This document shows positions 15,026-19,333 of a DNA stretch of 64,000 nucleotides, one piece after another. How positions within the stretch are numbered: the first letter of the stretch is position 1; each line of letters starts with the position of its first letter. Source of the DNA: Escherichia coli (GTDB lineage: Bacteria; Pseudomonadota; Gammaproteobacteria; Enterobacterales; Enterobacteriaceae); the NCBI RefSeq assembly GCF_003334385.1, contig NZ_QOWN01000026.1; one strand, given 5' to 3'. A model generated the notes under the pieces. The model saw only the letters and a program-made list of their open reading frames with translations. It had not been told where the DNA came from and did no database searches. A program made the position numbers and the translations under genes.

Positions 15026-16387
15026 TTAGCGACCAGGGAAGCCTGGGGGCATCATACCCTTCATGCTTCTCATCATCTTCGCCATTCCGCCCTTCTTCAT
15101 TTTCTTCATCATGCGCTGCATGTCGTCGAACTGTTTCAGAAGACGGTTAACGTCCTGCACCTGCATACCGCAACCGGCAGCAATACGGCGTTTACGCGAA
15201 CCTTTGATGATTTCTGGCTTAGCGCGCTCTTTCATCGTCATCGAGTTGATGATGGCTTCCATACGCACCAGCACTTTATCGTCCATCTGTGACTTGACGT
15301 TATCCGGGATCTGCCCCATGCCCGGCAGCTTGCCCATCAGACTAGCCATGCCGCCCATATTTTTCATCTGGCGCAGCTGCTCAAGAAAGTCGTTGAGATC
15401 GAAGCCGTCACCTTTTTTCAGCTTGCTGGCTAATTTCTCTGCCTGCGCGCGGTCAACTTTGCTTTCGATATCTTCGATCAGCGACAGTACGTCGCCCATG
15501 CCGAGAATACGCGACGCGATGCGGTCCGGATGGAACGGCTCCAGCGCCTCAGTTTTCTCGCCAACACCGAGGAACTTGATCGGTTTGCCAGTGATGTGAC
15601 GAATAGAGAGCGCCGCACCGCCGCGGGCATCGCCGTCCACTTTGGTCAACACTACGCCGGTAAGCGGTAACGCTTCATTGAATGCTTTTGCCGTATTGGC
15701 CGCATCCTGACCGGTCATGGCGTCAACCACAAACAGGGTTTCAACCGGGTTAATCGACGCATGGACTTGTTTGATCTCGTCCATCATCGCTTCGTCAACG
15801 TGCAGACGACCAGCGGTATCCACCAGCAGCACGTCGTAGAATTTCAGTTTGGCTTCTTTCAGCGCCGCGTTAACGATATCTACCGGCTTCTGACCAACAT
15901 CAGAAGGGAAGAAATCAACGCCCACCTGCTCTGCCAGCGTCTCAAGCTGTTTGATTGCCGCCGGGCGATAAACGTCGGCAGAAACCACCAGCACTTTCTT
16001 CTTGTGCTTCTCGCGCAGGAACTTACCGAGTTTACCAACGCTGGTTGTTTTACCGGCACCTTGCAGGCCCGCCATCAGTACGACCGCAGGCGGTTGCGCA
16101 GCCAGGTTCAGGGTCTGGTTCTCTTCGCCCATCGCCGCAACCAGTTCGTTACGGACTATTTTGACGAACTCCTGCCCCGGCGTCAGGCTCTTATTAACTT
16201 CATGACCAACCGCTTTCTCTTTTACGCGATTGATAAACTCACGCACTACCGGCAGAGCTACGTCCGCCTCCAGCAGCGCCATGCGCACTTCGCGCAGCGT
16301 ATCTTTTACGTTGTCTTCAGTGAGGCGTCCACGGCCACTGATATTGCGCAGCGTGCGCGACAAACGATCGGTTAAATTATCAAACAT
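15026..16387 (-). CDS. ffh: Signal recognition particle protein Ffh
   Basis: 453-aa ORF with SRP54-type GTPase motifs (GLQGAGKTT) and Met-rich C-terminal M domain. Confidence 0.97.
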   Translation of the reverse strand: MFDNLTDRLSRTLRNISGRGRLTEDNVKDTLREVRMALLEADVALPVVREFINRVKEKAVGHEVNKSLTPGQEFVKIVRNELVAAMGEENQTLNLAAQPPAVVLMAGLQGAGKTTSVGKLGKFLREKHKKKVLVVSADVYRPAAIKQLETLAEQVGVDFFPSDVGQKPVDIVNAALKEAKLKFYDVLLVDTAGRLHVDEAMMDEIKQVHASINPVETLFVVDAMTGQDAANTAKAFNEALPLTGVVLTKVDGDARGGAALSIRHITGKPIKFLGVGEKTEALEPFHPDRIASRILGMGDVLSLIEDIESKVDRAQAEKLASKLKKGDGFDLNDFLEQLRQMKNMGGMASLMGKLPGMGQIPDNVKSQMDDKVLVRMEAIINSMTMKERAKPEIIKGSRKRRIAAGCGMQVQDVNRLLKQFDDMQRMMKKMKKGGMAKMMRSMKGMMPPGFPGR

Positions 16388-16553
16388 TGTCTCTCGCCTG
16401 GGGTGGAAACGGTTGGCCGCAATCGCGACACATCATCAGTATTTTGCCGCAGTATAACATGAAGGCGTCTTTGTTGTTATGCAACGGTTGGAGCAGCGTT
16501 CACCTGACGCTATACTGCTTCTCTTTCTTATTGCTCAAACTGTCGACATCACT

Positions 16554-17345
16554 ATGCCCGTTTTTGCTCTGCTCGCGCTTGTCGCCTACTCCGTCAGTCT
16601 TGCGCTGATTGTTCCCGGTCTGCTGCAAAAAAACGGCGGCTGGCGGCGCATGGCTATTATTTCTGCGGTCATTGCGCTGGTCTGCCACGCAATCGCTCTG
16701 GAAGCCCGCATCCTGCCCGACGGTGATAGCGGACAAAACCTCAGCCTGCTGAACGTTGGTTCATTGGTCAGTTTGATGATCTGTACGGTAATGACCATTG
16801 TGGCTTCTCGCAATCGTGGCTGGCTGCTGCTACCCATTGTCTATGCCTTTGCGCTTATCAACCTGGCGCTGGCAACCTTCATGCCCAATGAATACATCAC
16901 CCATCTGGAAGCTACGCCTGGGATGCTGGTGCACATTGGCTTATCGCTCTTTTCCTATGCCACGCTAATTATCGCCGCCCTGTACGCGCTGCAACTGGCG
17001 TGGATTGATTACCAACTGAAGAACAAGAAGCTGGCGTTTAACCAGGAAATGCCGCCATTGATGAGTATCGAGCGTAAAATGTTCCACATCACGCAGATTG
17101 GCGTGGTGCTGCTAACGCTCACGCTTTGCACTGGCCTGTTCTACATGCACAACTTATTTAGCATGGAAAATATCGACAAGGCTGTGCTCTCTATCGTGGC
17201 GTGGTTTGTCTATATTGTGCTGCTGTGGGGACATTATCATGAAGGATGGCGTGGACGCCGCGTCGTCTGGTTTAACGTTGCGGGCGCGGTAATTCTGACA
17301 CTGGCCTACTTCGGCAGCCGAATTGTCCAGCAGTTAATCAGCTAA
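16554..17345 (+). CDS. ypjD: Inner-membrane protein YpjD (CcsA-like)
   Basis: ORF 16479-17345; start placed at internal MPVFALLALVAY; multiple TM helices. Confidence 0.85.
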   Translation: MPVFALLALVAYSVSLALIVPGLLQKNGGWRRMAIISAVIALVCHAIALEARILPDGDSGQNLSLLNVGSLVSLMICTVMTIVASRNRGWLLLPIVYAFALINLALATFMPNEYITHLEATPGMLVHIGLSLFSYATLIIAALYALQLAWIDYQLKNKKLAFNQEMPPLMSIERKMFHITQIGVVLLTLTLCTGLFYMHNLFSMENIDKAVLSIVAWFVYIVLLWGHYHEGWRGRRVVWFNVAGAVILTLAYFGSRIVQQLIS

Positions 17346-17365
17346 ACCCAGAAAAGGAGTTTCCC

Positions 17366-18652
17366 CTGGAACACATTTCTACTACTACGTTGATCATTAT
17401 TCTGATCATCATGGTGGTCATTTCAGCCTATTTTTCCGGGTCCGAAACCGGAATGATGACCCTCAACCGCTATCGTCTGCGACATATGGCGAAACAGGGT
17501 AATCGCTCGGCCAAACGCGTCGAAAAATTGCTGCGTAAGCCAGACCGCCTGATAAGCCTGGTGTTAATCGGCAATAACCTGGTCAATATTCTTGCCTCCG
17601 CGCTCGGCACTATTGTTGGGATGCGTTTGTACGGCAATGCGGGCGTGGCAATTGCGACTGGTGTGCTGACTTTTGTCGTACTGGTATTTGCTGAGGTATT
17701 GCCGAAAACCATTGCCGCGCTGTACCCGGAAAAAGTCGCTTATCCGAGTAGTTTTCTGCTGGCTCCGCTGCAAATTTTGATGATGCCGCTGGTCTGGTTG
17801 CTGAATGCTATCACCCGTATGCTGATGCGCATGATGGGTATCAAAACCGATATCGTGGTTAGCGGCTCTTTGAGCAAAGAAGAGTTGCGCACTATCGTGC
17901 ACGAATCACGCTCACAAATTTCCCGTCGCAATCAGGATATGCTGCTGTCGGTGCTCGATCTGGAAAAAATGACCGTTGATGACATCATGGTGCCGCGCAG
18001 TGAAATTATCGGTATTGATATCAACGATGACTGGAAATCGATTCTGCGCCAACTCTCCCACTCACCTCACGGGCGCATCGTGCTCTACCGTGATTCGCTG
18101 GACGACGCCATCAGTATGCTGCGAGTACGTGAAGCCTGGCGGTTGATGTCGGAGAAAAAAGAGTTCACCAAAGAAACCATGCTGCGCGCCGCGGACGAGA
18201 TCTATTTTGTGCCGGAAGGTACGCCGCTCAGCACGCAGTTGGTAAAGTTTCAGCGCAACAAAAAGAAAGTCGGCCTGGTCGTCAACGAGTATGGAGACAT
18301 TCAGGGGCTGGTGACGGTTGAAGATATTCTGGAAGAGATTGTCGGCGATTTCACTACGTCGATGTCGCCAACACTTGCCGAAGAGGTCACGCCGCAAAAC
18401 GACGGTTCGGTGATTATCGATGGCACCGCCAACGTGCGGGAAATCAACAAAGCCTTTAACTGGCATCTACCGGAAGATGATGCCCGCACGGTTAATGGCG
18501 TCATTCTTGAGGCACTGGAAGAGATCCCTGTCGCAGGCACCCGCGTGCGTATTGGCGAGTACGATATCGATATTCTCGACGTACAGGACAATATGATTAA
18601 GCAGGTAAAAGTTTTTCCTGTGAAACCGCTGCGCGAGAGTGTGGCGGAGTAA
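17366..18652 (+). CDS. yfjD: CorC/HlyC-family membrane protein with CBS domains (YfjD)
   Basis: ORF track starts at TTG 17390 (420 aa). AAGGAG at 17353-17358 sits 7 nt upstream of an in-frame CTG at 17366, which would give 428 aa. Confidence 0.85.
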   Translation: MEHISTTTLIIILIIMVVISAYFSGSETGMMTLNRYRLRHMAKQGNRSAKRVEKLLRKPDRLISLVLIGNNLVNILASALGTIVGMRLYGNAGVAIATGVLTFVVLVFAEVLPKTIAALYPEKVAYPSSFLLAPLQILMMPLVWLLNAITRMLMRMMGIKTDIVVSGSLSKEELRTIVHESRSQISRRNQDMLLSVLDLEKMTVDDIMVPRSEIIGIDINDDWKSILRQLSHSPHGRIVLYRDSLDDAISMLRVREAWRLMSEKKEFTKETMLRAADEIYFVPEGTPLSTQLVKFQRNKKKVGLVVNEYGDIQGLVTVEDILEEIVGDFTTSMSPTLAEEVTPQNDGSVIIDGTANVREINKAFNWHLPEDDARTVNGVILEALEEIPVAGTRVRIGEYDIDILDVQDNMIKQVKVFPVKPLRESVAE

Positions 18653-18654
18653 CG

Positions 18655-18700
18655 AAAACGGCCCGGCATTCGCATGCAGGGCCGTGAATTATTACGAAAG
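18655..18700. terminator. Terminator between convergent yfjD and grpE
   Basis: Hairpin ACGGCCC...GGGCCGT between the two stop codons. Confidence 0.55.
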
Positions 18701-18706
18701 CAGAAA

Positions 18707-19333
<627 letters not shown>

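What the first reader, a model, noticed from the sequence alone, without database searches (positions are those of the whole stretch)
17351..17392. yfjD probably initiates at a non-canonical CTG codon
A strong Shine-Dalgarno sequence (AAGGAG, 17353-17358) lies 7 nt upstream of an in-frame CTG at 17366. The first canonical start in frame (TTG 17390) is 31 nt from that SD and already inside the first TM helix. Starting at CTG adds MEHISTTT and gives 428 aa.
Basis: partly seen in the sequence, partly recalled or inferred. Interest (0 to 1): 0.35.

Follow-up and report, generated by a model that had tools for sequence, protein, structure and literature searches.

The report
Known CTG start codon of yfjD
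The E. coli membrane transporter gene yfjD does begin at a rare CTG start codon behind a strong ribosome-binding site, but this was predicted, tested by mutagenesis and put into the reference genome annotation more than ten years ago.

Summary

**What is there**
- The window is the E. coli ffh–ypjD–yfjD–grpE region.
- CTG lies at 17366-17368 and TTG (codon 9) at 17390, as stated.
The spacer is 6 nt, not 7.

**Already known**
- NC_000913.3 annotates yfjD (b4461, 428 aa) starting at exactly this CTG.
- The EcoGene 3.0 paper (PMC3531124) reports start-codon mutagenesis with protein fusions. These confirmed CTG, and mutating the TTG had no effect.

**Independent support from 78 Enterobacteriaceae species**
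- Codon 1 is always NTG: CTG 39, TTG 26, GTG 13.
- Codon 9 is TTG in only 8 species.
- Codons 2-8 vary almost only at third positions (0.004 versus 0.231). Upstream, only the ribosome-binding site (Shine-Dalgarno, SD) is conserved.
- 4700 of 5426 complete E. coli genomes carry the identical 90 nt.

**Mechanism**
A consensus SD at good spacing places fMet-tRNA on the weak CUG. This probably keeps expression of this CNNM/CorB-type transporter low.

**The only possibly new point**
CTG pairs with AAGGAG in 34 of 39 species. TTG and GTG never do (0 of 39), which suggests compensation between start codon and SD strength.

Interest is low.

The parts
16554..17345 (+). ypjD coding sequence, the upstream gene of the likely ypjD-yfjD operon. 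Its stop TAA is at 17343-17345, 20 nt before the yfjD start.
   Evidence: The NC_000913.3 annotation maps onto the window with an offset of 15591. The ORF is listed. No promoter-like or terminator-like site lies in the 20-nt gap.
17354..17359 (+). Shine-Dalgarno sequence AAGGAG
   Evidence: Read directly from the sequence. Duplex with the 16S 3' end is -8.2 kcal/mol, against no stable pairing (+2.4) ahead of codon 9. The AAGGA core sits at a fixed distance from codon 1 in 75 of 78 species.
17360..17365 (+). 6-nt spacer TTTCCC between the SD and the start codon
   Evidence: A 1-nt C insertion here is tolerated in strain SRCC 1675, where the CDS is still called from the CTG.
17366..17368 (+). 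CTG initiation codon of yfjD
   Evidence: It is the annotated start in NC_000913.3. Published mutagenesis supports it. The homologous codon is CTG 39, TTG 26, GTG 13 in 78 species.
17369..17389 (+). Codons 2-8 (EHISTTT), the translated N-terminal tail ahead of TM1
   Evidence: Variability at codon positions 1+2 is 0.004 and at position 3 is 0.231. Codons 16-30 show the same pattern, 0.012 and 0.270.
17390..17392 (+). TTG, codon 9 (Leu). This is the formerly annotated start and is not the start.
   Evidence: Only 8 of 78 species have TTG here; 69 have CTN and 1 has TTA. There is no SD pairing upstream. Published mutation of it had no effect.
17411..17413 (+). ATG, codon 16 (Met, invariant). Automated gene callers wrongly choose it as the start.
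   Evidence: Logan and ENA protein calls begin MVVISAYF. It is invariant in all 78 species and lies in the middle of the TM1 hydrophobic run.
17366..18652 (+). yfjD coding sequence, 428 aa plus stop: a CNNM/CorB-type (HlyC/CorC family) inner-membrane transporter
   Evidence: Pfam finds CNNM at 11-184, CBS, and CorC_HlyC at 344-418. The NCBIfam NF008604 equivalog matches residues 1-427 to model positions 1-427 of 428. CorB structures 7M1T/7M1U align from residue 10 to chain residue 11.

Best explanation
yfjD is translated from the CUG at 17366.

**Proposed steps**
1. The 30S subunit is positioned by the consensus Shine-Dalgarno AAGGAG, 6 nt upstream.
2. Initiator fMet-tRNA reads CUG with a mismatch at the first codon position, so the protein begins Met-Glu-His-Ile-Ser-Thr-Thr-Thr and is 428 aa long.
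3. CUG is a poor start codon: about 1-2% of AUG in reporter assays, and IF3 discriminates against it.
4. The site therefore sets a low output for this CNNM/CorB-type membrane transporter. The strong SD, and possibly ribosomes arriving from ypjD, which ends 20 nt upstream, partly offset this.

**Status of each part**
- Shown by others: CTG is the functional start and TTG is not.
- Shown here: conservation of an NTG start with an SD, coding constraint beginning at codon 2, and no usable alternative start in most species.
- Inferred: low expression as the purpose, and any contribution from coupling to ypjD.
For: - EcoGene 3.0 mutagenesis and fusions confirmed the CTG.
- The reference and PGAP annotations start at the CTG.
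- In 78 species, codon 1 is always CTG, TTG or GTG, with the AAGGA core at a fixed distance in 75 of them.
- The L/V alternation at codon 1 contrasts with near-invariant E2 H3 I4 S5 T6 T7 T8.
- Third-position-only variation starts at codon 2, and upstream positions vary freely apart from the SD.
- In 29 of 39 CTG species the next canonical in-frame start is ATG codon 16, inside TM1.
- In-frame stops lie 12-21 nt upstream in most species, which excludes a longer ORF.
- A 1-nt insertion directly before the CTG is tolerated in one strain.
- The 90 nt around the start are identical in 4700 of 5426 E. coli genomes.
- SD duplex is -8.2 kcal/mol before the CTG, against none before the TTG.
- The family profile NF008604 and solved CorB homologues cover the N-terminus at matching offsets.
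- CUG initiates at 1-2% of AUG (Hecht et al.).
Against: - The published experiment is cited only as unpublished results (Dague and Rudd) within a database paper, so the primary data cannot be inspected.
- I found no ribosome-profiling or N-terminal peptide evidence for this gene in the papers and supplements held.
- The motif itself is not statistically unusual in the window.
- Low expression as the purpose is an inference.
Confidence: 0.95

Rival explanations
1. Translation starts at the TTG at 17390 (codon 9), as in the older annotation, giving 420 aa.
For: It is the first canonical start codon in the frame. The MazF-regulon paper appears to have used this start: its 'ACA 17 nt from start' fits the ACA at 17371-17375 relative to 17390.
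Against: - Published mutation of the TTG had no effect.
- There is no SD pairing upstream of it (+2.4 kcal/mol).
- The codon is TTG in only 8 of 78 species and CTN in 69.
- Codons 2-8 are under protein-coding constraint.
Confidence: 0.02
2. Translation starts at the invariant ATG at 17411 (codon 16), as automated gene callers predict, giving 413 aa.
For: ATG16 is invariant in 78 species. Several Logan and ENA gene calls begin MVVISAYF.
Against: - It would remove the first half of the TM1 hydrophobic run L9-F23.
- It would remove residues aligned to solved CorB structures and to the Pfam and NCBIfam models.
- Codons 2-15 show coding-type constraint.
- In 39 species a canonical TTG or GTG with an SD sits at codon 1.
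Confidence: 0.02
3. Initiation at the CUG depends mainly on ribosomes that have just terminated at the ypjD stop 20 nt upstream (termination-reinitiation coupling), not on fresh 30S binding.
For: The gap between the ypjD stop and the yfjD start is only 12-30 nt in 71 of 78 species, with no promoter or terminator between them. Reinitiation in E. coli is documented and is sensitive to IF3 (PMC2268962).
Against: - Six species with 104-159 nt inserted between ypjD and yfjD all keep CTG with AAGGAG, so close coupling is not required to maintain a CTG start.
- The consensus SD at good spacing is what fresh initiation needs.
- The EcoGene fusions worked, but their construct design is not described.
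Confidence: 0.25
4. Two protein forms are made: CUG gives the main product, and a minor N-terminally truncated form starts at TTG9 or ATG16.
For: Internal in-frame starts are widespread in E. coli according to initiation-profiling papers. Nothing here excludes low-level internal initiation.
Against: Neither internal codon has an SD. Truncation would damage TM1. TTG9 is not conserved. The TTG mutation had no measurable effect.
Confidence: 0.05

Closest known systems
E. coli hda, the first chromosomal E. coli gene shown to start at CTG
   Same: A chromosomal gene whose translation starts at CUG, established experimentally. EcoGene 3.0 names yfjD as the second such case.
   Different: It is an unrelated gene (a regulator of DnaA) in a different sequence context. 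I did not examine hda here.
infC and pcnB AUU start codons in E. coli (from general knowledge and papers listed)
   Same: A weak, non-canonical start codon that IF3 discriminates against is used to hold expression low.
   Different: The codon is AUU rather than CUG. For infC the weak start is part of a demonstrated IF3 autoregulatory loop. No regulation has been shown for yfjD.
CNNM/CorB magnesium transporter family (Salmonella CorB; Methanoculleus CorB structures 7M1T/7M1U)
   Same: The protein has the CNNM transmembrane domain, a CBS pair and a CorC_HlyC domain. It aligns to CorB structures from residue 10. The CorB structure paper lists yfjD as an orthologue.
   Different: This concerns the protein product, not the start-codon feature. 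The transport function of E. coli YfjD itself was not tested here.
Translationally coupled gene pairs (for example M13 gene V-VII, PMC2268962)
   Same: A short distance (20 nt) separates the upstream stop from the downstream start in one operon.
   Different: yfjD has its own consensus SD. Species with 104-159 nt gaps keep the CTG, so coupling is at most a helper.

Membership tests
Genes with a genuine non-canonical CUG initiation codon | In-frame CTG preceded by a Shine-Dalgarno sequence at about 5-9 nt | tested here: met
   AAGGAG at 17354-17359, 6-nt spacer, CTG at 17366. Duplex energy is -8.2 kcal/mol.
Genes with a genuine non-canonical CUG initiation codon | No canonical start codon in frame between the upstream stop and the CTG | tested here: met
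   The in-frame TAA is at 17273-17275, and no ATG, GTG or TTG occurs until 17390.
Genes with a genuine non-canonical CUG initiation codon | Protein-coding constraint begins immediately after the CTG and is absent before it | tested here: met
   For codons 2-8, variability at positions 1+2 is 0.004 and at position 3 is 0.231. Upstream positions vary by 0.2-0.7 except in the SD.
Genes with a genuine non-canonical CUG initiation codon | Orthologues carry a canonical start codon at the homologous position | tested here: met
   Among 78 species, 26 have TTG and 13 have GTG at this codon. All keep an A/G-rich SD (AAGGA in 36 of these 39) at matching spacing.
Genes with a genuine non-canonical CUG initiation codon | Expression is lost when the CTG is mutated and kept when the alternative start is mutated | not testable with these tools
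   Reported as done, with that result, in EcoGene 3.0 (PMC3531124; the primary data are unpublished).
Genes with a genuine non-canonical CUG initiation codon | The N-terminal residue is (formyl-)Met, not Leu | not testable with these tools
   No N-terminal peptide for YfjD was found in the supplements searched. The first tryptic peptide would be 35 residues long and very hydrophobic (from the sequence).
CNNM / HlyC-CorC family transporters (NCBIfam NF008604 equivalog) | CNNM (DUF21) transmembrane domain, CBS pair and CorC_HlyC C-terminal domain, scoring above the curated cut-off | tested here: met
   Pfam PF01595 at 1.7e-53, PF00571, and PF03471 at 7.5e-19. NF008604 scores 866 bits against a cut-off of 475, matching residues 1-427 to model positions 1-427.
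Termination-reinitiation coupled gene pairs | Very short or overlapping intercistronic distance | tested here: inconclusive
   The gap is 20 nt in E. coli and 12-30 nt in 71 of 78 species. Six species with 104-159 nt gaps keep the CTG.
Termination-reinitiation coupled gene pairs | Downstream translation depends on upstream translation | not testable with these tools
   This needs a ypjD nonsense mutant with a yfjD reporter.

The most novel reading that the evidence does not exclude
The CTG may be a selected setting rather than an accident. Across Enterobacteriaceae the gene has switched repeatedly between a weak start with a full SD (CTG + AAGGAG) and a stronger start with a weaker SD (TTG or GTG + AAGGAA/C). 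This would hold output of the CorB-type transporter within a narrow low range. A CUG start would also make YfjD synthesis sensitive to initiation fidelity, that is, to IF3 level and free Mg2+. Synthesis of a putative Mg2+ exporter would then rise when Mg2+ is high. The covariation is observed here. The regulatory reading is speculation.
Probability: 0.12. Interest if true: 0.5.

Novelty: already known. Interest (0 to 1): 0.1.

Why it matters
For E. coli this changes nothing. The CTG start is in the reference annotation and has published experimental support.

Its practical value is as a well-supported example for annotation work:
- Gene callers that allow only ATG, GTG or TTG truncate this protein by 8 or 15 residues, cutting into its first transmembrane helix. 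Such truncated entries are present in public protein collections.
- The same applies to 39 of the 78 enterobacterial species sampled, including Salmonella, Enterobacter, Raoultella and Kosakonia.
- At least one transcriptome study seems to have measured distances from the obsolete TTG start.

The covariation between start codon and SD could serve as a small natural example of compensation between the two determinants of initiation strength.

Tried and rejected
- **Motif statistics.** AAGGAG-N5-8-CTG occurs once in the window against 1.12 expected, so the motif alone carries no weight.
- **RNA structure around the start.** The fold of 17326-17405 is -12.2 kcal/mol with a z-score of -0.64, so there is no special structure.
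- **Promoter and terminator scan of 16300-18800.** Nothing lies in the ypjD-yfjD gap, and the counts are at chance level.
- **Direct experimental evidence in the literature.**
  - The Ribo-RET preprint has no supplements held as text.
  - The TRAINSPOTTER N-terminomics supplements do not contain yfjD, and one file was cut when stored.
  - A full-text search for yfjD found only the EcoGene paper as relevant to the start codon.
- **Inserted DNA between ypjD and yfjD in four species.** One 16-nt inverted repeat was found in Raoultella. I did not pursue it.
- **A first tree-building attempt** timed out in MAFFT. I redid it without alignment, because the region has no indels.
- **A ypjD-yfjD fusion by frameshift** was rejected. 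The two frames differ, the gap length varies from 12 to 159 nt, and in-frame stops lie just upstream of codon 1 in most species.
- **Orthologues outside Enterobacteriaceae** were not fetched. The single genome scan returned only the 80 closest loci, so the ancestral state of the start codon is not resolved.

Full report
**1. Observation**

The window around 17100-17700 shows these features:
- the ypjD stop TAA at 17343-17345
- AAGGAG at 17354-17359
- the spacer TTTCCC at 17360-17365
- CTG at 17366-17368
- the codons GAA CAC ATT TCT ACT ACT ACG
- TTG at 17390-17392

The spacing is therefore 6 nt rather than 7, and TTG is 30 nt rather than 31 beyond the SD. Everything else is as described. TTG 17390 heads the mechanically listed ORF of 420 aa. 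The frame is open back to a TAA at 17273-17275, with no ATG, GTG or TTG in between. Starting at CTG adds eight residues, giving 428 aa. The bare motif AAGGAG-N5-8-CTG is not unusual: one occurrence in the window against 1.12 expected from shuffles. The case rests on context and conservation.

**2. What the locus is**

The neighbours are ffh, ypjD, yfjD, grpE and nadK. The 301 nt around the site match all 5426 complete E. coli genomes.

The product is a CNNM/CorB-type (HlyC/CorC family) inner-membrane transporter:
- Pfam finds CNNM at 11-184, a CBS domain, and CorC_HlyC at 344-418.
- The NCBIfam equivalog NF008604 scores 866 bits against a cut-off of 475. It matches residues 1-427 to model positions 1-427 of 428, so the curated family model includes the eight N-terminal residues.
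- The solved CorB structures 7M1T/7M1U align from query residue 10 to chain residue 11. The 428-aa form therefore has the same N-terminal offset as structurally characterised homologues.

**3. It is already known**

In NC_000913.3, yfjD (b4461, YP_026171.3) is annotated at 2748774-2750060. This is 1287 nt, and its first codon is exactly this CTG. NCBI's pipeline also places the start there in five other E. coli genomes, including the most divergent ones sampled.

The EcoGene 3.0 paper (PMC3531124, section 'CTG start codon verification') makes three relevant statements:
- A CTG start was then predicted for yfjD from sequence conservation and ribosome-binding-site inspection.

**4. Independent comparative test**

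One scan of species-representative genomes returned 80 orthologous loci from Enterobacteriaceae at 86-99% protein identity. I anchored them on the invariant SETGMMTLN motif. This gave 78 usable sequences: 77 of the 80 loci plus the window.

- **Codon 1.** It is CTG in 39 species, TTG in 26 and GTG in 13. It is never anything else. Read as a sense codon it would alternate between Leu and Val, whereas residues 2-8 are essentially invariant.
- **SD.** An AAGGA core precedes codon 1 at a fixed distance in 75 of 78 species.
- **Codon 9.** It is TTG in only 8 species, CTN in 69 and TTA in 1.
- **Next canonical start.** Among the 39 CTG species the next canonical in-frame start is codon 9 in 6, codon 11 in 4 and ATG codon 16 in 29. 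Codon 16 lies in the middle of the hydrophobic run L9-F23.
- **Upstream limit.** In most species an in-frame stop lies 12-21 nt upstream of codon 1, so no longer ORF is possible.
- **Coding constraint.** In codons 2-8, variability is 0.004 at positions 1+2 and 0.231 at position 3. Codons 16-30 show the same signature, 0.012 and 0.270. Upstream of codon 1 all positions vary by 0.2-0.7 except the SD.

Coding therefore begins at this codon in the whole family.

**5. Within E. coli**

The 90 nt from 17330 to 17419 are identical in 4700 of 5426 complete genomes and 95-99% identical in the rest. The variants I inspected change only positions outside the SD and the CTG. One strain, SRCC 1675, has an extra C in the spacer immediately before the CTG. 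This shifts the frame of anything upstream, and the CDS is still called from the CTG. It is further evidence that nothing upstream is translated in this frame.

**6. How it most likely works**

The steps that are shown and those that are inferred differ.

- The SD pairs with the 16S 3' end at -8.2 kcal/mol. The 20 nt before TTG codon 9 form no stable pairing, +2.4.
- The local RNA fold is unremarkable, with a z-score of -0.64.
- Initiator tRNA must read CUG with a first-position mismatch. Wild-type initiation complexes discriminate against this (PMC11497404).
- In reporter assays CUG gives about 1-2% of AUG, whereas GUG and UUG give 10-100% (Hecht et al.).

From this I infer that the site gives low output of the transporter, partly offset by the consensus SD. 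ypjD ends 20 nt upstream with no promoter-like or terminator-like site in between. Ribosomes finishing ypjD may therefore contribute. However, six species with 104-159 nt inserted between the genes all retain CTG with AAGGAG, so tight coupling is not needed.

**7. Rivals**

- **TTG codon 9.** Contradicted by the published mutagenesis, by the lack of an SD and by non-conservation.
- **ATG codon 16.** This is what non-NCBI automated calls use (proteins beginning MVVISAYF). It would delete half of TM1 and ignores the coding constraint on codons 2-15.
- **A minor internal protein form.** It cannot be excluded, but nothing supports it.
- **A ypjD-yfjD fusion.** Excluded by the variable gap and the in-frame stops.

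**8. The one possibly new observation**

Start codon and SD strength covary:
- CTG goes with AAGGAG in 34 of 39 species.
- TTG and GTG go with AAGGAA, AAGGAC or weaker motifs, and never with AAGGAG (0 of 39).
- Mean SD duplex energy is -8.1 kcal/mol for CTG species against about -6.0 for the others.

I built a rough neighbour-joining tree from 900 nt of the gene body. On it, CTG versus canonical start changes about 9 times and the SD state about 8 times. The combined state changes only 10 times, so most changes coincide. I also simulated an independent binary character on the same tree and kept the runs with 6-11 parsimony changes. None of about 1500 such runs reached the observed association: phi was 0.88 observed and at most 0.54 simulated.

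Three caveats apply. The tree comes from a single gene. The two sites are 7 nt apart and share any recombination history. No outgroup was included. The pattern fits the established idea that weak start codons need strong SDs. It is a modest refinement rather than a discovery.

**9. Verdict**

The feature is already known, experimentally tested and in the reference annotation. Interest is low.

Noticed in passing
window 17354-17368, and the homologous positions of L004-L083: Start codon and SD covary across 78 Enterobacteriaceae species. CTG pairs with AAGGAG in 34 of 39; TTG and GTG never do (0 of 39). Most changes coincide on a rough gene tree, and the association exceeds that in simulations of an independent character (phi 0.88 against a maximum of 0.54).
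   Followed up: partly
window 17371-17375 (ACACA in codons 2-4 of yfjD): Table 1 of the MazF-regulon paper (PMC5001579) lists yfjD with a cleaved ACA 17 nt from the start. This fits only the obsolete TTG start at 17390. The cleavage would therefore lie inside the real coding sequence, removing the SD and the CTG, rather than in a 5' UTR.
   Followed up: partly
L084:130-140 (E. coli SRCC 1675; also hits H66 and H67): A 1-nt C insertion lengthens the SD-to-CTG spacer from 6 to 7 nt (TTTCCCC before the CTG) in a subset of E. coli genomes. Its effect on expression is unknown.
   Followed up: partly
L002:1594-1611 (E. coli ChlosBP-23-1), corresponding to window 17343-17351: A 9-bp tandem duplication (TAACCCCAG) spans the ypjD stop codon and the start of the intergenic spacer. 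It lengthens the ypjD-yfjD gap without touching the SD or the CTG.
   Followed up: no
proteins P0002, P0006, P0007, P0020, P0027, P0075, P0076, P0081, P0098: Gene calls from Logan and ENA assemblies start this protein at ATG codon 16 (MVVISAYF...), 15 residues short. Public protein collections therefore carry systematically truncated YfjD/CorB entries for species with a CTG start.
   Followed up: partly
L019, L026 (159 nt), L009 (134 nt), L023, L024 (118 nt) and L036 (104 nt), all upstream of position 1501: Raoultella, one Citrobacter amalonaticus strain, an Enterobacter sp. and Intestinirhabdus carry 104-159 nt of extra DNA between ypjD and yfjD. L023 contains a 16-nt inverted repeat (1394-1409 and 1471-1486). 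All six keep CTG with AAGGAG. The nature of the inserts was not determined.
   Followed up: partly
window 16479-16553: The longest ypjD ORF starts at ATG 16479 (288 aa). The reference annotation starts 25 codons later, at 16554 (263 aa). I did not evaluate which is correct.
   Followed up: no
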